A stretch of 47,754 nt of DNA from a virus (taxonomy: Duplodnaviria; Heunggongvirae; Uroviricota; Caudoviricetes), in IMG/VR virus record IMGVR_UViG_2778261224_000004. One strand, written 5' to 3'. The notes beneath the pieces were generated by a model. That model did no database searches. It saw nothing but the letters and a program-made list of their open reading frames with translations, and had not been told where the DNA came from. Position 1 is the first letter of the stretch. Each line of letters opens with the position of its first letter. This document shows, one piece after another, positions 1-47,754 of the stretch. The translations under genes and the position numbers were made by a program.

Positions 1-77
1 GATATTGTTATAGGGCATAATGTGACCATTGGTTGTAATGCCACCATTCTTGGTGGCAAAGTGCGTATAGGAAACAA
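1..77. repeat. Terminal duplication: bases 1-77 identical to 47678-47754 (circular-closure overlap)
   Basis: Same 77-nt string at both window ends, in the same reading frame of the acetyltransferase gene. Confidence 0.9.
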
Positions 78-183
78 TGTCACAATAGGTGCTCATGCAT
101 TGGTATTGCATGATATTCCTGATGATTCAACATTCATCACTAAATTTCAGTCTGAAGTTATCTGCTCGTCCTCCCGAACATAA
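1..183 (+). CDS. Hexapeptide-repeat (left-handed beta-helix) O-acetyltransferase, C-terminal part; same gene as 47297..47754 across the circular junction
   Basis: Frame-1 translation [42 protein letters not shown]... shows hexapeptide repeats; stop TAA at 181-183. Confidence 0.7.
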
Positions 184-764
184 CCCTGATTCATCAGCTC
201 TGGCCATACGATATCCGGAGCTGTACTGGTGTCAATTCTACTCACTAATACTCTGTATTTTCTCCAGGAATCCAGTTGTGAATTTTCCTCGTTTGTTGCT
301 ATTTCAAGATTAACTGCATCCTGCAGAATTGCGATGTTATCTGTTGCTTCCTGGATCAACCTTGCCTTTTTCTCTTCCGCTTCCCGTATCCGAAACAGTT
401 TTTCTGCTTCCTCATCATTCACCCAGGATACGCCGTCCCACTTCTGATACTCCCCTGCTGGCGACAACCAGGTGACATTCTCTGGTAGCGGTCCGAGTTC
501 AGAAATAAACAATGCGTCCCCCGACGCCACGTCATAGACCGTTTTACCACGATGGTCTTCAACAATATTCCACGATTCATTTTCACTGTTAAAAACTGCC
601 ACAAAGCCAGCAGGAATTTCCGGTGGGGCGATATCTGTAGAATTAGCTGGCAGCCCTGTATGAGGTGGAATATATGCGTCACCTTCACCAATAAACTCAT
701 TAGTTCCGGCCAGCAGGTTATAAATTTTTACGGTACGTGATTGTTCACTCATTCTGAATGCCAT
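147..764 (-). CDS. Tail fibre assembly protein (Tfa-like chaperone)
   Basis: 205-aa ORF immediately downstream of the tail fibre gene; size, position and composition typical of lambda Tfa / P2 G / Mu U chaperones; 3' end overlaps the acetyltransferase 3' end convergently (147-183). Confidence 0.7.
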
Positions 765-3610
765 TATGCAAGCCTCACAATATAATTAAATGCGATGTTT
801 TTAACGGTGTTTTCCGCGTTACCAGCAGCGTTAACGGTGATGGTGTGTCCATGTGAACCAATCTTAACAGAGTGCGTATGAGCGCCAATACCAACAGTGT
901 GTGCATGTGCCCCAGCACTTGTAGCGGTACCTGATACTGAGTGGGTATGTGCGCCAGAAGAAGGCACAGTTCCATTCCCCACCACCGTGCCACTTGATGA
1001 ACCATCCAGCCAGTCGAAATTCATACCGCCACTGTTTGGTCTCCTTAATGGAACGGTATGAGTATGTGCGCCAGCACTATTTGCAGTACCAGATACATTG
1101 TGGGTATGTGCACCTGTGTTATTCGTTGATTTAGTACCGTAATCAAACGACGATGTGGTTTTCGTACCCAAATCCGTACTGGATGCGCTGGCACTGTGGG
1201 TGTGCGATTTAATGCCATCCTGTTCCTGAGACAATACGGCCCGACCACTGGCGGGTTTGCCCTTGATTGTCCAGCCGCGCATATCTGGAATAACACCAGA
1301 AGGATAGGCAATAGCCAGTTTCGGATATGCTGCCTTATCAAACGTCTGCCCCTGCATGATTGCATAACCTGCAGGTGGCGTATCTGATGGCCACGGCAGC
1401 GGAACACCTGGCGGAAACGCTTCAATATTTGCCGAGCCGTCAAATTTTACGCCGTTAATTGTCCTTGCCGTTTTCAGCTTTGTTGCTGTCGCCGCATTGC
1501 CGGACAGTTCACCAGAAAGGCCAGCACTGAATGTCTGTTTCGCGCCCCATGTCTGGGCTTCGTCAATGATTGGTACTCGTCTTGTTGTGATCGTGCGGCT
1601 CCCCGGATTTCCTGAAATGCGCACCATAAAAAAGCGGTAGTTGGCTTTACTTACAGTGCTGCGCCATACATGCATTGAGCGCCCCGTACCGGAATCATCA
1701 CTCGGACCAACTGCGATATTTATCAGGTTGCCATCAATGACGCCCCAGTCCATACCGTCGGGAATATTGGTCATATTATCCAGCCGAACGGTTATCAGAC
1801 TGCCCGGAACAAAGTCGTAGGTCTGCCAGTCCAGGCTGGTGAGCTTTGCCACAGCACCGCCGATACCCAGATTCAGGGGAAGTGAATACGAGGTGTAGAC
1901 TTCCCGCCATTCGCTCCACGAGCTACCGGTATAGGCGCGCTCAAACGTGCGACCTTTAAGGGTTGCACCTGTTCCGGCGGTTGTATAACGTTGCCATACG
2001 TTAACGCCATCAAAGCGCCTCAGCACTTCCAGAATACCGAGTACAGTCACGCCGTTTCCGTCCAGTATTGGACCATTGGTCGCTTTACCTGTAACGCTGT
2101 AAATACCTGGTGAGGTTACATCATTCAAATCACCGTCGTAATAACGGCTTTCTGACTGATGACCGACTCTTAACCACGGTTCCCACTGCGGATTTGATGC
2201 ATCCCAGCTTGCCGCAAGGCAGCGGACATACATATTTCCACGGCGAGTGGTATAACGTTGCGTTCTTCCATAATTTCCGCCTTCGAGGATCTCAAGCATC
2301 CCCTGAGCAAAGCCGCCTTCCTCTGGATAATTGCGTTCATATGAAGCTATAGCTGAGCTACTGTTACGCCATAAACCAAGATGCTCGGCGGCTCCAAGCG
2401 TATTCAGGTCTATAGTCGTACTCAAAGGGCGGGTAGCAGATTGAGTGTGACGCCATACGCCCCACGGACCATCAGTGCCATTCCACTTATTGGCGAGTTT
2501 ACGCATGTATACATTGCCGTCTCTCGTGGTAAAGCGTTGCGTACCTGCAAAATGGCCGGCAGCAAAAACCTCAAGCACACCGACAGCATTATCTTCCGGG
2601 AAATTTTTCTCCAGTGTTGCGTTGGTGGATGTTGCTTTAGACCAGATACCTGAATAAGCCTTAACAGGACCAAACGTATTCAGATCAGCATCAAGCGGCA
2701 TTTCGCCATTGTTTTTCATAAACGTCAGGCTGGTAACGCCAACATTGTCCAGAAAAGCTGATTTATCCTGGATATCTGCACCGTTCTGATTTTTCGCCAG
2801 ACGTGAATTTGCGTTGTCATTTGCTGCCTTGACCGCTTTTGGCGTTGCCGCCTGCGTTTCAGACGTACTGTTAGTGGCACTACTGAGCTGAACTATCCCT
2901 TTTTGTGCCGTGGTGGCATTCTGGGCGGTATATTTTCCGTCAGCCAGGTCATATGCAGCCTTAACAGCCTTAGGCGTCGCTGCGAGCTTTTCAGACGTGC
3001 TATTGGTGGCATTACTGAGTTGAACAATGCCTTTTGATGTTAAAGTTGCATCAGGATGATTACGTGATTGCTCATGTTTTACAATAGCTTGCTTAAGCCG
3101 CTTTGCTGAAACAGCCAGGGAATCATCTGTACCTGCATCAATTTCTTGTTCATTAGCAAATCTTGCTACTCCAACAACAGTTTCGGTTGCGGGAGGGTTA
3201 ATAAACTCAACATCACCAAATGTAATGTTTTTAGTATCAAGATTTTTAATTGCTATATCACTTGATATTAAAGCAATTGTAGAAGATGCTTTATTTATTA
3301 TTACTTGTTCTTGCGAGTATACAGCAAACAATGTTCCTTTATTTGTATACAAACCTATTGTATGGACAACATACTCATCTTTACTATCATCCTTCGCAGT
3401 TACATGAATGGTATCAGGAGAAACGACTTTGCCTCCTATTGTGGTAAGTCGCTTTATTTCATCTGTTATTTTTGTTTGTGTGGTTGATGTGGCATAATAT
3501 CTACTACCTAAACCAACAGAAACGATCTCAACTTTATTTGTTCCAGTCTTGTTGGCATTAACCAGCGCCTTACGCCCGGCGTCAGTCATCGTAAATAATA
3601 ATTTACTCAC
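764..3610 (-). CDS. Tail fibre protein with C-terminal His-x-His repeat tip domain
   Basis: 948-aa ORF; repeated collar-like motifs (KGIVQLSxATNSTSE..[10 protein letters not shown] twice), three paralogous internal modules (..[15 protein letters not shown].. / ..[16 protein letters not shown].. / ..[11 protein letters not shown]..), and C-terminal GAHTHxVSGTA..HTHSV HxH repeats as in T4 gp37-type and lambda Stf-type fibre tips. Confidence 0.85.
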
Positions 3611-5339: not shown

Positions 5340-5656
5340 TCTCTAACTCCTATCACAAGTTTTGGCCTAATAAAACCATCAGAAACGTCCGTTCTTTCAA
5401 AAGTAACAGAATGGATAATCGCTCTAGGCTCAAACTCACTAATTTTTTGAATTATTTCTCGTGTTGCTGTAGCAATAAAAATTGGACTAGGGCTATCAAC
5501 AAGACTTGAATTAATTCCTAATTTTCTGGCATATGGTACAGTGCCAATTTGAGTATTAATAATAGTAGAGACATTTTGCAAAACTTCTTCTACAACTGTT
5601 TTGGGCGACCAATCAATCGAGTAAGAAGGTGATGATATGGTAAACGTATTATTCAT
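5336..5656 (-). CDS. Baseplate wedge protein, GPW/gp25-like
   Basis: 106-aa ORF with gp25/W-like size and motif pattern (..EPRAII..), directly upstream of J-like gene. Confidence 0.65.
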   Translation of the reverse strand: MNNTFTISSPSYSIDWSPKTVVEEVLQNVSTIINTQIGTVPYARKLGINSSLVDSPSPIFIATATREIIQKISEFEPRAIIHSVTFERTDVSDGFIRPKLVIGVRE

Positions 5657-6120
5657 AATAATTTACCTAACGCACTTCTAGTTTTTGACTCTATATTGCC
5701 AGCAATATCAACTAATGCTTCTTTCAGAGAGGTCTGTCCGACTTCCTGTAATTTAATGCCGACGATAATCACTCGTGGATTCCCAGTTGGACCGAAATAA
5801 GTCCATGATTCCTCTATATCTGTAATTATAAAATTACCAAAATACTGAATACCAATTACAACAGGATTTACTTCCTGAATTGATTGCATTGTCCTAAGTA
5901 ATGAAAGCGCAGCCAATGGAACAATGCCAAGTGTTGTATCCAACCGCATATTAAAACTAACTTCATCCAGATCTGGACCTATATCCTCCAGAACAGGTTT
6001 AAGCCCAATAACATCATGGCGCGCTACACGACGCTTTGACGTCCTTTTAAAATTGTTGAACGTATTCACCACTATTGATGAGGCAACAAAAGGCATTGTA
6101 CCAAGCATACCCACAATCAT
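5653..6120 (-). CDS. Hypothetical baseplate-region protein
   Basis: 155-aa ORF between spike and W-like genes, overlapping stop/start coupling with neighbours. Confidence 0.4.
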   Translation of the reverse strand: MIVGMLGTMPFVASSIVVNTFNNFKRTSKRRVARHDVIGLKPVLEDIGPDLDEVSFNMRLDTTLGIVPLAALSLLRTMQSIQEVNPVVIGIQYFGNFIITDIEESWTYFGPTGNPRVIIVGIKLQEVGQTSLKEALVDIAGNIESKTRSALGKLL

Positions 6121-6737
6121 GCCTGAGCCTCCGTTGTCGGAGCGTATTCCCCCTGAGCTGTGTGATGGTGGCCTTTAGATTTAATCCCATCAACATCTAT
6201 ATCACCACCAACAACCTTAACATTCCCAGAAATTGTAGCTGCAACACCTCCAGCAGAAGATCCTTTCATTCCACCTTTGAAGGTTAGTAATCCTTCAACT
6301 GTAGCATTTCCGGTAATGATGGTTTCTGGAGCATCAATAGTTACGGTTCCTGTAGCCTTAATGGTTACATCTCCGACAGCATCAACAAGGAGTAAATTAG
6401 ATTCTCTGTCTATCTCAATACGAGTTCCGTTATTAAATCTAATGACGCGTTTATTAACAGTATTAGATGGCGGCTTCTGTGTTTCATCATAAAAACTACC
6501 AAGAATAAAACCTTGTTGCGGCCCCGCGGGATGAAAGATACACAAAACTTGCTCACCAATATCTGGCATCCAGTAATCAGCATTCTTATCTGTATTTTTC
6601 ACAATAACTGATAACTTTGCCGAAGTGACGTTATCCTGATCATCGAAAGTAACTCTTGCTGTAACATCACCATCATCAATATCAGAAACAACGCCAACTC
6701 TTATAGTCTGACGTAATAATGTTTCTAAATCATTCAT
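6117..6737 (-). CDS. Baseplate central spike protein (P2 gpV / Mu gp45-like)
   Basis: 206-aa ORF; C-terminal Gly/Val-rich beta-helix-like repeats (TIDAPETIITGNATVEG...GGVAATISGNVKVVGGDIDVDG) and His cluster (KGHHHT) typical of spike tips. Confidence 0.65.
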   Translation of the reverse strand: MNDLETLLRQTIRVGVVSDIDDGDVTARVTFDDQDNVTSAKLSVIVKNTDKNADYWMPDIGEQVLCIFHPAGPQQGFILGSFYDETQKPPSNTVNKRVIRFNNGTRIEIDRESNLLLVDAVGDVTIKATGTVTIDAPETIITGNATVEGLLTFKGGMKGSSAGGVAATISGNVKVVGGDIDVDGIKSKGHHHTAQGEYAPTTEAQA

Positions 6738-6739
6738 AA

Positions 6740-7741
6740 TTAATACCCATTAATTACTCTTCGGACATCAATCGAGGTGGTATAACCACTAGTCCCAATT
6801 GAATGCACAGCTTTCGATATAAGATATTTTCCAGAAAATGAACCGAATCCCTCCAGATTTATAGTTACACCAGCTACCAATCTGGTGTCTCCAACCAATA
6901 CTAAAGATCCGGTATTTTGATATCTATTTTTAAGCCGCAAAGCAGCCTTTGCCTTACGTTTTGCTTCATCTAAATTAGCTACCAGTTTTCTTATCTTAAG
7001 ATTCGACCCTTCTTCTACGGATGGATCTACCCAAGTATACGAAAGCGACTTTCTTTTTTTAGGTACGCGATATTTGCACGTGCAACTTTTATACAAATCT
7101 GTAGATTGTGTGCTAAAGCTATATCTGATTATCTCATCAATACCTAACGTAAGCGTAGCGATAGGATCTTTTTGCTCAAACATCTCTTGAGCAAATATTA
7201 TTAATTGGCTATCAGTGACCTTTAACGACAACCCTTCATCCTGGCAAAGTCGATGGAGAAATTTTAAATCGCTTTCCTCCATTTGATCTTCACGCGCATA
7301 ATATGGATTACTATCACCATCAATAAGAAACAACAGTTCAAGGTTAGCTAATTTAGCTATAGAAGTTGCTATATCTTTAAGAGTTGTTTTTTCCCATGCA
7401 TTACTTTTTAAATCACGTCTAATGCCTGATGAAACAGGAACAGAAACAGCAGTTACCTCAACCACAGAAGGTGGTCCAGAGCAAGTTATGCCATCTACCT
7501 GGAATTTCCCGCACTCAAGGACGATTTGATTTATAGGCTTAAAGCTCAAATCAATAAAATCACCCTTTTTAGGTGTCCAGTCTCCAGACCATTTCCCATC
7601 ATCATTTTTTAATATAATAGAAATATCATCGACCTGACCATCTTCATTATCTGTATAAGACATTGACAAAACATCAGGTGACATATGAGCGGTAATATTT
7701 ACATTCTGATATATAACATCAAAAAGCGTTTTACGTAACAC
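6740..7741 (-). CDS. Tail/baseplate hub protein, P2 gpD-like (late control D family)
   Basis: 333-aa ORF downstream of tape measure and LysM-like gene; size and synteny. Confidence 0.5.
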   Translation of the reverse strand: MLRKTLFDVIYQNVNITAHMSPDVLSMSYTDNEDGQVDDISIILKNDDGKWSGDWTPKKGDFIDLSFKPINQIVLECGKFQVDGITCSGPPSVVEVTAVSVPVSSGIRRDLKSNAWEKTTLKDIATSIAKLANLELLFLIDGDSNPYYAREDQMEESDLKFLHRLCQDEGLSLKVTDSQLIIFAQEMFEQKDPIATLTLGIDEIIRYSFSTQSTDLYKSCTCKYRVPKKRKSLSYTWVDPSVEEGSNLKIRKLVANLDEAKRKAKAALRLKNRYQNTGSLVLVGDTRLVAGVTINLEGFGSFSGKYLISKAVHSIGTSGYTTSIDVRRVINGY

Positions 7742-28376: not shown

Positions 28377-28452
28377 TGGTGGCCCCTACCGGATTTGAAC
28401 CGATGACCGTGCGATTATGAGTCGCCTGCTCTAACCACTGAGCTAAGGGGCC
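28377..28452 (-). tRNA. tRNA with CAT anticodon (Met or lysidine-type Ile2), encoded CCA end
   Basis: Hand-folded cloverleaf GGCCCCTTAGCTCAGTGGTTAGAGCAGGCGACTCATAATCGCACGGTCATCGGTTCAAATCCGGTAGGGGCCACCA: 7-bp acceptor stem, D arm, anticodon loop CTCATAA, T loop TTCAAAT. Confidence 0.85.
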
Positions 28453-45852: not shown

Positions 45853-46830
45853 TTAATGTTGGAGTGATTTCCAGGTCTTTCTTAACCTGTTATAACGCTG
45901 CTCAACGAGGGATCGTAAATATGCAAGGTCAGCTCCAGGATACATGCCATCAGCAAATTCCTGGCTAACCTCTCTAGTGATTTGATGACGAAGTTCGGCC
46001 TCTCCCTTTTCCCGAACAAGACGCGCAGCTCTCTCCGCTGCTTTCTGTTTTGCCTTTATCTCTCTGGCCGTCTTCCTCTGATGCCATACATTCTCCATCT
46101 GCTCCTGAATAACAATACGCTTATAATCAGCCTCCGTTATCGCTTTTTTAAGCCGTTCGCTATTCTTCGCATTGAAGTAATTAAGTTTCTGGCTAACCGC
46201 ACGTCTCCATGCTTGTTCAGTAATACCAACGGTTTCCAGCAGTTGATCACGAATCTCTATTTTCGCTGGCCAATACTGTTTATTCACCCGATCCCAGCGA
46301 CGTTCATAATCAATAAAACCTAACGCTTTCAGTTGCGACAATGCCCTTGTACAGCGCGTTATAGACTTGTTCCCAGCTTCGGATACGGTAGACAGGCCGC
46401 AAAAATCAGCCAACGCCTCAGCACTGGCCAGAACCCGCTTAGAAATGATGTTTACATGGTGCAAAATCGCAGCGATCACAGCATTAATCGCCCGACGACG
46501 ATGCTCGTTTATCCGGCGCTTCCGCTCTGACGGTTGATTAACGTAGAACGCAACCTCACACGTAAGATCACGCCCATTAATGCGCTGTAAAGCATCAGAT
46601 AACACCAGCGGCAGCTTGTGCGTATGGTGCTTTGGAGGCTGGAACTCCGGCGACAAATTACAAACGTAAGCTGAACGTAGAGACGGCATTGGTCTATCCA
46701 TATGTTCGCTCTTGCGTCCACGGAAAACCAACGTATAATGGGAGTTGTCGAGGCGCCCATGGTTAGTTGTTGGTTTTCCGTGGATGTCGCAAGAAGCCCG
46801 CAGATTTATCTGCGGGCTTTTTGTTTCCAT
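45853..46830 (-). CDS. repA: Plasmid replication initiator RepA, IncFII (RepFIIA)-like; true start probably internal (Met 46701 or 46692)
   Basis: 325-aa ORF; ..FCGLSTVSEAGNKSITRCTRALSQLKALGFIDYERRWD.. resembles the RepA1 core as recalled; the N-terminal 43 codons overlap the antisense-RNA/leader structures. Confidence 0.6.
   Translation of the reverse strand: METKSPQINLRASCDIHGKPTTNHGRLDNSHYTLVFRGRKSEHMDRPMPSLRSAYVCNLSPEFQPPKHHTHKLPLVLSDALQRINGRDLTCEVAFYVNQPSERKRRINEHRRRAINAVIAAILHHVNIISKRVLASAEALADFCGLSTVSEAGNKSITRCTRALSQLKALGFIDYERRWDRVNKQYWPAKIEIRDQLLETVGITEQAWRRAVSQKLNYFNAKNSERLKKAITEADYKRIVIQEQMENVWHQRKTAREIKAKQKAAERAARLVREKGEAELRHQITREVSQEFADGMYPGADLAYLRSLVEQRYNRLRKTWKSLQH
46746..46826 (+). 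ncRNA. Candidate CopA-like antisense RNA opposite the repA leader
   Basis: Plus-strand TTGCGT-N16-TATAAT (46712-46739) and, about 80 nt downstream, terminator GCCCGCAGA-TTTA-TCTGCGGGC plus TTTTGTTT (46796-46826); perfect 15-bp inverted repeat 46718-46732 / 46768-46782 in the leader. Confidence 0.5.
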
Positions 46831-46881: not shown

Positions 46882-47296
46882 TTTAAGAGAACTCTACCAC
46901 AACACTTTCGGTCATGCACGAAGTCTCTCACTGATCGAACGATAATCCACCAGTAAAAGGATCTAAATTGGATCTCGTTTTGCGAGCATCATACTACTGG
47001 CCTAACTCCAGTCAATGATTCCCAGCCAGAAACCTGCGGTAAACTCATCGTTCAGCAATATGCTGTCCGGCTTCAAAGATAAGGTGACATCATCCCTTAA
47101 CAGCGCGGCCAGTTCAGTTAAAGGGCTGTTCTGATTTAATGCTGGCCACTCATACCTGGTAATAAGTGGTCAGTCTTAACACTCACCATTTGATTGCACC
47201 CGTGTTGACGATTTGTTACTGGATATCAGACACGCTGGATAGCCAGTAGAAACATACCATTAAAATTATTACAATAATTGGTCACATGATTATCTT

Positions 47297-47754
47297 ATGC
47301 TGAATAATAAAGATATGAATATTAATGAACTTAAAGACTGTATTCACTATGAAGTAATCGGTAGCGAGCGTCCTTTCTCCTGGCGAAAGGCAATTGTTCG
47401 CGCAATAAAACATAGAAGGGTTCGTTATTTATTTTGGTGGCGCATAGCCAAATACCTTTTTGATAAAGGCGGATACTGTCGGAAGATTGCGGGAAAAATA
47501 GAACGTTTCATTCTTGATAAATATAATGTAACAGTCCCTTTAACTGTAAATATAGGGAAAGGCTTTGATATTTCTTATCTCAACAGTGTTGTTATCGGTC
47601 ACAAAGTAACAATCGGTGAAAATTGTTCAATTAAGCCCGGAGTAACTATTGGACTTCGCGGGGAATTTAATGATATGGATATTGTTATAGGGCATAATGT
47701 GACCATTGGTTGTAATGCCACCATTCTTGGTGGCAAAGTGCGTATAGGAAACAA
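47297..47754 (+). CDS. Hexapeptide-repeat O-acetyltransferase, N-terminal part (continues at 78..183 across the circular junction; about 187 aa in total)
   Basis: ATG at 47297; translation MLNNKDMNINELKDC...GKGFDISYLNSVVIGHKVTIGENCSIKPGVTIGL... with hexapeptide repeats; reads in frame into the terminal duplication. Confidence 0.75.
   Translation, partial: MLNNKDMNINELKDCIHYEVIGSERPFSWRKAIVRAIKHRRVRYLFWWRIAKYLFDKGGYCRKIAGKIERFILDKYNVTVPLTVNIGKGFDISYLNSVVIGHKVTIGENCSIKPGVTIGLRGEFNDMDIVIGHNVTIGCNATILGGKVRIGN

What the first reader, a model, noticed from the sequence alone, without database searches (positions are those of the whole stretch)
47297..47754. O-acetyltransferase at the junction of tail-fibre and replication modules, convergently overlapping tfa: a possible lysogenic-conversion gene
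A ~187-aa hexapeptide-repeat acyltransferase is encoded on the plus strand between the repA region and the minus-strand tail fibre/Tfa genes; its 3' end overlaps the tfa 3' end by 37 nt (147-183). Acetyltransferases next to tail-fibre genes in temperate phages often modify surface polysaccharide (receptor masking), but hexapeptide acyltransferases have many substrates.
Basis: inference. Interest (0 to 1): 0.45.

Follow-up and report, generated by a model that had tools for sequence, protein, structure and literature searches.

The report
Prophage acetyltransferase riding a tail-fibre cassette
A real, conserved accessory gene for a small acetyltransferase-fold protein travels between E. coli phages together with a tail-fibre tip; it probably modifies a cell-surface sugar polymer in lysogens, but it has swapped the usual catalytic histidine for tyrosine, so its chemistry is uncertain.

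Summary
The window is a circular assembly with a 77-bp terminal overlap. A hexapeptide (LβH) acyltransferase ORF runs 47297..47754, continues at 78..183, and overlaps the minus-strand tfa by 37 nt. Homologues suggest the real start is 47315 (181 aa).

The gene is not a serine acetyltransferase, WcaB, EpsC or NeuO. It belongs to phage family phrog_2154, which has no assigned function. It sits on a 3.45-kb imported block (tail-gene remnant, acetyltransferase, tfa, fibre tip). That block replaced the invertase and invertible tail-fibre segment found in a sibling phage-plasmid. The same block occurs in P2-like prophages and P1-like plasmids, in about 145–211 of 5,426 complete E. coli genomes.

Non-phage relatives lie in polysaccharide or O-antigen loci. 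The gene has a conserved promoter-like site, low GC, and an orientation opposite the late operon. This makes "lysogenic-conversion glycan acetyltransferase" the best reading, but it is untested.

This monophyletic lineage has Tyr where 94 other family members and SAT have the catalytic His, yet dN/dS is 0.02–0.09. The 37-nt overlap is lineage-specific and looks incidental. Overall this is a new member of a known kind, of modest interest.

The parts
47297..47754 (+). 5' part of the acetyltransferase ORF. The longest ORF starts at 47297, but the probable true start is the ATG at 47315. The Tyr codon that replaces the family's catalytic His is TAT at 47576-47578 (Tyr88 in 181-aa numbering, Tyr94 in 187-aa numbering).
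1..183 (+). 3' part of the same ORF. Bases 1-77 duplicate 47678-47754 because of the assembly overlap. The stop codon is at 181-183. Bases 147-183 overlap the 3' end of tfa.
47247..47275 (+). Sigma-70 promoter-like site, TAGAAA-17 nt-TACAAT. It is conserved in the P2-like prophage and P1-like plasmid copies, and the -10 is a perfect TATAAT in the P1-like copy. The homology with the P1-like plasmid begins just upstream, at about 47227.
   Evidence: consensus match and conservation only; activity was not shown
47044..47134 (+). Remnant consisting of the last 91 nt of a P2-type tail gene (gpU-like 'tail protein'), with its terminator-like hairpin at 47110-47128. This marks the left end of the imported block.
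47012..47043 (-). 32-nt remnant of the 3' end of a hin-type DNA-invertase gene. Homology with the sibling phage-plasmid (Yersinia phage vB_YpM_39) stops at 47043.
147..764 (-). Tail-fibre assembly gene tfa (205 aa, Caudo_TAP). It carries a 15-aa C-terminal extension beyond the usual ...DIVWPEL end, and this extension creates the 37-nt overlap.
764..3610 (-). Tail-fibre gene (948 aa). The part from 764 to about 2816 (C-terminal about 680 aa, including the receptor-binding tip) belongs to the imported block. From about 2817 onward the gene again matches the sibling phage-plasmid.
45853..46830 (-). IncFII-type plasmid replication initiator repA, the backbone neighbour on the other side.

Best explanation
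The gene is a phage accessory ('moron') gene. It encodes a small soluble protein with four N-terminal helices followed by a left-handed beta-helix, from the SAT-like branch of acetyl-CoA-dependent hexapeptide acyltransferases. The non-phage members of that branch are polysaccharide repeat-unit O-acetyltransferases.

The gene is cargo on a mobile cassette made of its own promoter, the acetyltransferase, tfa and a tail-fibre tip. This cassette recombines between P2-like prophages, P1-like phage-plasmids and this 47.7-kb IncFII-type phage-plasmid. In this element it replaced the invertase and invertible fibre segment.

The most likely mode of action is inferred, not shown. The gene would be transcribed from its own promoter in the lysogen. 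The trimeric enzyme would acylate a cytoplasmic precursor of an envelope glycan (O-antigen, LPS core, colanic acid, ECA or capsule). That would change the cell surface and hence phage adsorption or serotype, as NeuO of prophage CUS-3 does for the K1 capsule.

What is shown: the gene, its fold, family membership, cassette mobility, purifying selection, and the context of relatives. What is inferred: expression in lysogeny, the donor and acceptor substrates, and catalytic competence despite the His-to-Tyr change.
For: - **Relatives in glycan loci:** In Proteus the order is cysE, acetyltransferase, ugd; in Leminorella the gene is next to Wzy_C; in Salmonella it lies between DUF6056 and a tail fibre. 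The Flavobacterium and metagenome homologues sit inside glycosyltransferase/Wzx clusters.
- **Association with tail fibres:** At least 34 of 75 distinct downstream neighbours are Caudo_TAP, and at least 18 of these belong to His-type members. P0020 lies at the distal end of a prophage tail-fibre module.
- **Cassette mobility:** The block is 91-97% identical in a P2-like prophage, a P1-like plasmid and this plasmid. It is present in 145-211 of 5,426 complete E. coli genomes.
- **Moron features:** The promoter-like site is conserved within the block. GC is 37.7% against 44.6% for the element. The gene is convergent to the late tail operon. One copy is disrupted by IS1 with a 9-bp duplication.
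- **Selection:** dN/dS is 0.02-0.09 with dS up to 0.65.
- **Precedent:** NeuO is a prophage LβH O-acetyltransferase that modifies the K1 capsule and affects phage resistance (PMC3046976, PMC13001214).
Against: - The residue aligned with the family's catalytic His (E. coli CysE His158; PMC8786284) is Tyr in this protein and throughout its lineage. It is His in 94 of 94 other phage-family members and in 116 of 122 nearest cluster representatives. O-acetyltransferase activity is therefore not assured.
- There is no expression or biochemical evidence.
- Some relatives sit in contexts unrelated to glycans, such as Rahnella between a POT transporter and a GGDEF protein.
- The linked fibre tip is related to StfR/TfaR-type side tail fibres. 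From my own knowledge, their receptors are often OmpC or LPS core rather than O-antigen, so a receptor-masking logic is not established.
- No strong Shine-Dalgarno sequence precedes either candidate start.
Confidence: 0.45

Rival explanations
1. The protein is a catalytically altered enzyme or a pseudo-enzyme. The His-to-Tyr lineage would no longer transfer acetyl groups to a hydroxyl. It would instead act by binding, for example by sequestering a glycan precursor or acetyl-CoA, or by forming mixed trimers with a host LβH enzyme. Alternatively it would use a different chemistry with Tyr in the active site.
For: Tyr is invariant in 19 unique lineage members while His is invariant in 88 unique sister sequences. 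The lineage is monophyletic, so the change happened once. No compensating His is conserved across the lineage. Strong purifying selection shows that the Tyr form is functional. A catalytic His is considered general for LβH acyltransferases (PMC3046976, PMC8786284).
Against: The rest of the LβH scaffold and the motifs shared with active enzymes are retained. From my own knowledge, some LβH sugar N-acetyltransferases such as QdtC and WlbB work without a catalytic base, so loss of His need not abolish transfer. No binding partner is known.
Confidence: 0.2
2. The protein is an acyltransferase acting on a non-glycan small molecule, such as a xenobiotic, antibiotic, metabolite or signalling molecule. 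It would give the lysogen a metabolic, resistance or anti-phage benefit unrelated to the cell surface.
For: There are weak similarities to Maa, LacA, Vat, CatB and sugar N-acetyltransferases. Several relatives are stand-alone genes next to transporters or regulators.
Against: Scores to Vat and CatB models are 22-27 bits against cutoffs of 300-475. PADLOC gives no hit. The closest non-phage relatives are embedded in polysaccharide clusters.
Confidence: 0.15
3. The protein is a genuine serine O-acetyltransferase (CysE-like), as RefSeq names it, and boosts cysteine synthesis.
For: RefSeq uses the product name 'serine acetyltransferase'. SATs are the closest solved structures.
Against: The TIGR01172 score is 71.5 against a cutoff of 210.65, and PRK11132 scores 44.7 against 397. 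There is no SATase_N Pfam match. CysE Asp143, Asp157 and His158 align with Thr, Ser and Tyr. The serine-binding GDRHP motif (Arg192, His193) aligns with NDMDI. In Proteus the relative sits right next to the true cysE as a separate gene.
Confidence: 0.03
4. The protein has a virion-related role. Because it occupies the place of the alternative tfa and fibre tip, it would act on the tail fibre or its assembly during lytic growth.
For: The gene sits exactly where Sv' and U' lie in sibling elements and is physically linked to tfa and the fibre tip.
Against: It is convergent to the late tail operon and not co-transcribed with it. It has no similarity to tail-fibre chaperones. Relatives occur in non-phage polysaccharide loci. 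An IS1-disrupted copy exists in an otherwise intact tail module.
Confidence: 0.05

Closest known systems
NeuO, the polysialic-acid O-acetyltransferase of E. coli K1 prophage CUS-3 (PDB 3JQY)
   Different: NeuO belongs to a different LβH subfamily, with only 23% identity over 111 aligned residues. The present gene has no 5' heptanucleotide VNTR or poly-psi domain. It lacks the NeuO catalytic His/Trp pair: Tyr sits at the family's His column, and there is no Trp in the β-helix. Its substrate is unknown.
Serine O-acetyltransferase CysE/SAT (e.g. PDB 1T3D, 4N69, 6WYE)
   Different: The full SATase_N domain and the C-terminal tail are missing. The catalytic Asp143 and His158 and the serine-binding Arg192 and His193 are not conserved. 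Scores are far below the equivalog cutoffs.
WcaB (colanic acid) and EpsC-type polysaccharide O-acetyltransferases, and the ~185-aa 'serine acetyltransferase'-annotated enzymes of O-antigen/EPS clusters
   Same: They have the same size and architecture. They are the best NCBIfam similarities (EpsC 81 bits, WcaB 62 bits). The nearest non-phage homologues sit in glycosyltransferase/Wzx clusters.
   Different: Scores are below the cutoffs (150 and 196 bits). Those relatives keep the catalytic His, and this lineage has Tyr.
Accessory-gene slot downstream of the tail-fibre genes in P2-like phages (Z/fun position of P2; invertase plus invertible fibre segment in P88-type phages, Mu G segment, P1 C segment)
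   Same: The locus is the same. In P88 and in the sibling phage-plasmid this slot holds hin, Sv' and U'. Here and in about 145 E. coli genomes it holds the acetyltransferase.
   Different: No invertase remains, only a 32-nt remnant. No crossover-site inverted repeats are present, so the fibre is fixed. The comparison with P2 Z/fun is positional only and comes from my own knowledge.

Membership tests
Hexapeptide-repeat (LβH) acyltransferase superfamily | Hexapeptide repeats or Pfam PF00132 above the gathering score | tested here: met
   47.5 bits against a cutoff of 27, E 1.1e-12
Hexapeptide-repeat (LβH) acyltransferase superfamily | Left-handed β-helix fold | tested here: met
Hexapeptide-repeat (LβH) acyltransferase superfamily | Conserved active-site histidine (general base) | tested here: not met
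   The column of CysE His158 is Tyr here. It is His in 94 of 94 other phage-family members and in 116 of 122 nearest representatives. The role of His is taken from PMC8786284 and PMC3046976.
Serine O-acetyltransferase (CysE) | NCBIfam equivalog score (TIGR01172, PRK11132) | tested here: not met
   71.5 against 210.65, and 44.7 against 397
Serine O-acetyltransferase (CysE) | SATase_N domain, and the catalytic and serine-binding residues Asp143, His158, Arg192, His193 | tested here: not met
   There is no PF06426 hit. These residues align with Thr, Tyr, Met and Asp.
WcaB / EpsC polysaccharide O-acetyltransferases | Equivalog score | tested here: not met
   WcaB scores 62.4 against 196 and 60.1 against 194.65. 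EpsC scores 81.2 against 150.
WcaB / EpsC polysaccharide O-acetyltransferases | Location in a polysaccharide biosynthesis cluster | tested here: not met
   This copy lies in a phage tail-fibre module. Only more distant relatives lie in such clusters.
NeuO-type phase-variable prophage O-acetyltransferase | 5' heptanucleotide VNTR (poly-psi) | tested here: not met
   Tandem Repeats Finder found no repeats in 47100-47754.
NeuO-type phase-variable prophage O-acetyltransferase | Catalytic His and Trp pair | tested here: not met
   Tyr sits at the His column, and there is no Trp in residues 80-187. NeuO residues are from PMC3046976.
NeuO-type phase-variable prophage O-acetyltransferase | Acetylation of a surface polysaccharide in the lysogen | not testable with these tools
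   This needs biochemistry or NMR/MS of lysogen glycans.
PHROG 2154 (phage protein family of unknown function) | Full-length profile match | tested here: met
   E 6.9e-79, residues 5-186 against profile positions 2-184 of 185
Moron / lysogenic-conversion gene | Own promoter, orientation and composition distinct from neighbouring late genes, and dispensability | tested here: inconclusive
   A promoter-like site is conserved within the mobile block. The gene is convergent to the late operon. GC is 37.7% against 44.6%. A copy is disrupted by IS1, and the slot has alternative occupants. Promoter activity and expression in lysogeny were not shown.
Known anti-phage defence systems (PADLOC) | Match to any defence-system protein model | tested here: not met
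   0 families at E up to 1

The most novel reading that the evidence does not exclude
One monophyletic lineage of prophage LβH proteins, which includes this gene, replaced the otherwise invariant catalytic histidine by tyrosine. It has kept Tyr under strong purifying selection while spreading on tail-fibre cassettes through three phage types. If Tyr is a working catalytic residue, this would be a new catalytic solution or a new acceptor chemistry for hexapeptide acyltransferases. If it is not, the protein would be a selected pseudo-enzyme that acts by binding, for example by poisoning a host trimeric acetyltransferase or sequestering a glycan precursor to alter the cell surface.
Probability: 0.25. 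Interest if true: 0.6.

Novelty: new member of a known kind. Interest (0 to 1): 0.35.

Why it matters
If the protein modifies an envelope glycan, then a gene present in roughly 3-4% of complete E. coli genomes would be an unrecognised serotype and phage-susceptibility modifier. It moves with receptor-binding modules between P2-like prophages, P1-like plasmids and IncFII-type phage-plasmids. That is relevant to phage therapy, host-range prediction and O/K-antigen typing. The 'serine acetyltransferase' product name in RefSeq is not supported and should not be used for metabolic inference. The conserved His-to-Tyr change gives a clean mutational test (Y88H, Y88F) of how much LβH acyltransferases depend on the canonical histidine.

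Tried and rejected
- **Invertase crossover sites:** I searched for inverted repeats linking the upstream remnant with the tail-fibre gene and found only chance-level matches. The segment is not invertible now.
- **Defence models:** PADLOC gave no hit.
- **Known RNAs:** An Rfam scan of the whole window found nothing in or near the gene.
- **Phase-variation repeats:** A tandem-repeat search for NeuO-like repeats found none.
- **Terminators:** A + strand scan downstream of the stop found none within 1-1200.
- **Literature:** Searches for functional work on this gene or this phage-plasmid found only an annotation-level mention of a prophage 'serine acetyltransferase' in C. rodentium ΦNP (PMC6456863). 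The P2/P4 hotspot paper (PMC9122126) covers the old/tin locus and never mentions an acetyltransferase. Nothing was found for vB_YpM_39. The P1-like plasmid paper PMC9037040 does not mention the gene. The QdtC paper (PMC2736325) is not held, so the 'no catalytic base' precedent rests on my own knowledge.
- **Structure prediction of the exact window protein:** I used the 96%-identical P0002, which has the same Tyr.
- **A compensating His (His101 or His164 in 187-aa numbering):** Rejected, because neither is conserved in the diverged Tyr-type members P0013 and P0014.
- **The 37-nt overlap as a regulatory feature:** Rejected, because 11 Tyr-type loci have a 10-nt gap instead and some His-type loci have an intergenic hairpin.
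- **Numbering correction:** An early notebook entry called the residue Y93. The correct numbering is Tyr94 (187 aa) or Tyr88 (181 aa).

Full report
**Observation**

The window is a circular assembly. Its last 77 bases are an exact copy of its first 77, so the true length is 47,677 bp. Read across this junction, a + strand ORF begins at 47297 and stops at 181-183 (187 aa). The minus-strand ORF 147..764 (205 aa) overlaps it convergently by 37 nt, at 147-183.

The neighbours are as stated:
- ORF 147..764 is a Caudo_TAP tail-fibre assembly protein (E 1e-39).
- ORF 764..3610 is a tail fibre (Phage_fiber_2 and Collar domains).
- ORF 45853..46830 is an IncFII-type RepA.

The ORF is a real gene. Pfam Hexapep scores 47.5 bits against a cutoff of 27. 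It matches phage family phrog_2154, which has no assigned function, over its full length at E 7e-79. Identical copies are annotated in about 18 E. coli plasmids of 47-49 kb.

All diverged homologues begin at the second methionine (MNINELK...), and RefSeq uses that start in chromosomal copies. The likely start is therefore 47315, giving 181 aa.

**What the locus is**

A sibling of this element, Yersinia phage vB_YpM_39 (49 kb), has the same repA backbone but a different arrangement next to repA. There it carries hin, Sv', U', U and S, a classical invertible tail-fibre segment of the Mu G / P1 C type.

Homology between the window and that sibling ends at 47043, which is 32 nt into the 3' end of hin. 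It resumes at about 2817, inside the tail-fibre gene. The intervening 3.45 kb (47044..47677 plus 1..2816) is an imported block. In order, it contains:
- the last 91 nt of a P2-type tail gene with its terminator-like hairpin (47044-47134)
- a 180-nt AT-rich spacer
- the acetyltransferase
- tfa
- the C-terminal two-thirds of the fibre

The same block recurs in other backgrounds:
- It is 94.6% identical in a P2-like (P88-type) chromosomal prophage, where the gene lies between the gpU-like tail gene and tfa.
- It is 94.8% identical in a 99-kb P1-like plasmid, where it lies at the position of the C segment.
- In phage P88 itself the slot holds a DNA invertase plus an alternative fibre tip and tfa.

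The tail-gene remnant joined to the acetyltransferase is found in 145 of 5,426 complete E. coli genomes. The acetyltransferase 3' end joined to tfa and the fibre tip is found in 211.

One chromosomal copy is split by IS1, with a 9-bp duplication. No inverted repeats link the remnant to the fibre gene. The fibre is therefore no longer switchable.

**Family and likely function**

A survey of 134 family members from genomes and viral contigs shows an Enterobacterales-wide, largely prophage-borne family. At least 34 of 75 distinct immediate downstream neighbours are Caudo_TAP genes, and at least 18 of those belong to members outside this gene's own lineage.

Chromosomal relatives sit at glycan loci:
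- In Proteus the order is cysE, acetyltransferase, ugd.
- In Leminorella the gene is next to a Wzy_C protein.
- In Salmonella it lies between a DUF6056 membrane protein and a tail fibre.

The next-nearest non-phage homologues are embedded in glycosyltransferase/Wzx clusters.

The gene has other features of phage accessory cargo:
- A promoter-like TAGAAA-17 nt-TACAAT site (47247-47275) is conserved in all three backgrounds. It lies just inside the point where the P1-like homology starts.
- GC is 37.7% (GC3 30%), against 44.6% for the whole element.
- The gene points against the late tail operon.

Together these favour an accessory gene expressed in the lysogen that acylates a precursor of an envelope glycan. 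This is the NeuO paradigm (PMC3046976, PMC13001214). It remains an inference, because nothing here shows expression or a substrate.

**The unexpected feature**

The residue aligned with the catalytic histidine of SAT is tyrosine in this protein (codon TAT at 47576-47578). In E. coli CysE that residue is His158, and it activates the acceptor hydroxyl (PMC8786284, PMC13040420).

The evidence on this change is as follows:
- His is invariant in 94 other family members, and Tyr occurs in all 40 members of this lineage.
- Among the 122 nearest 50%-identity cluster representatives, 116 have His. Only this clade has Tyr.
- The Tyr lineage is monophyletic, and its sister clade is a His-type prophage group.
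- Its members have diverged to about 52% identity.
- It is under strong purifying selection, with dN/dS 0.02-0.09 and dS up to 0.65.
- No compensating His is conserved across the lineage.

The protein is therefore functional, but its chemistry may differ from a canonical O-acetyltransferase. It could use Tyr in catalysis. It could act on a more nucleophilic acceptor; from my own knowledge, some LβH sugar N-acetyltransferases lack a catalytic base. It could also act by binding alone.

**What it is not**

- It is not CysE. It scores below the cutoffs, has no SATase_N match, and has Thr, Tyr, Met and Asp in place of Asp143, His158, Arg192 and His193. In Proteus the relative lies beside the true cysE as a separate gene.
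- It is not WcaB or EpsC by score.
- It is not NeuO-like in its details. It has no 5' repeat array and no His/Trp pair.
- It is not a known defence protein.

**The 37-nt overlap**

The overlap occurs in 26 loci where tfa carries a 15-aa extension past its usual ...DIVWPEL end. Eleven other Tyr-type loci have a 10-nt gap instead, and some His-type loci have a hairpin between the two genes. The overlap looks incidental rather than regulatory.

**Verdict**

The gene is a new member of a known kind: prophage LβH acyltransferase cargo next to receptor-binding genes. It carries a conserved active-site substitution that deserves a biochemical test. The gene is already annotated, wrongly, as 'serine acetyltransferase', and I found no functional study of it.

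Noticed in passing
window 1-77 and 47678-47754: There is an exact 77-bp terminal overlap, so the window is a circularly permuted assembly of a 47,677-bp circle. Genes at the ends wrap around.
   Followed up: yes
window 47012-47043 (-) and 47044-47134 (+): Two gene remnants lie back to back: 32 nt of a hin-type invertase 3' end, and the last 91 nt of a P2-type gpU-like tail gene. They mark where an invertible tail-fibre segment was replaced by a block from a P2-like prophage.
   Followed up: yes
window 39559-39855 (-), 40227-40299 (+), 40324-40412 (+), 28380-28452 (-): Rfam gathering-level hits were found for ryfA sRNA, isrK, C4 antisense RNA (the P1/P7-type immunity RNA) and a tRNA gene elsewhere on the element.
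   Followed up: no
window 43744-44396 (-): A RelE/ParE-family toxin gene and an HTH antitoxin gene pair (HigB2-like in the sibling phage's annotation) lie near the replication region.
   Followed up: no
window 46717-46732 / 46769-46784: A perfect 16-nt inverted repeat lies within the 5' part of the repA ORF and leader region. It may belong to IncFII-type copy-number control.
   Followed up: no
L002 (NZ_LR890336.1) 6071-7000: In the P1-like plasmid, about 1 kb of GC-rich DNA with no long ORF lies between the holin gene and the acetyltransferase, where P1 has cin. Its nature is unknown.
   Followed up: no
L006 (E. coli E1654 chromosome) 5472-6244; window 47508-47516: An IS1 insertion splits the acetyltransferase gene, with a 9-bp target duplication, inside an otherwise intact P2-like tail module.
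   Followed up: partly
window 147-1417: This tfa and fibre tip are 82-90% identical at the DNA level to the stfR/tfaR and tfaQ side-tail-fibre genes of the Rac and Qin-type lambdoid prophages, which are found in most E. coli genomes. Those copies lack the acetyltransferase.
   Followed up: partly
L012-L017, L022, L027, L028, L062 (Proteus spp.): A His-type homologue (about 40% identity) is translationally coupled to the genuine cysE with a 1-nt overlap and lies near ugd. It appears to be a conserved chromosomal acetyltransferase at the edge of the Proteus O-antigen region.
   Followed up: partly
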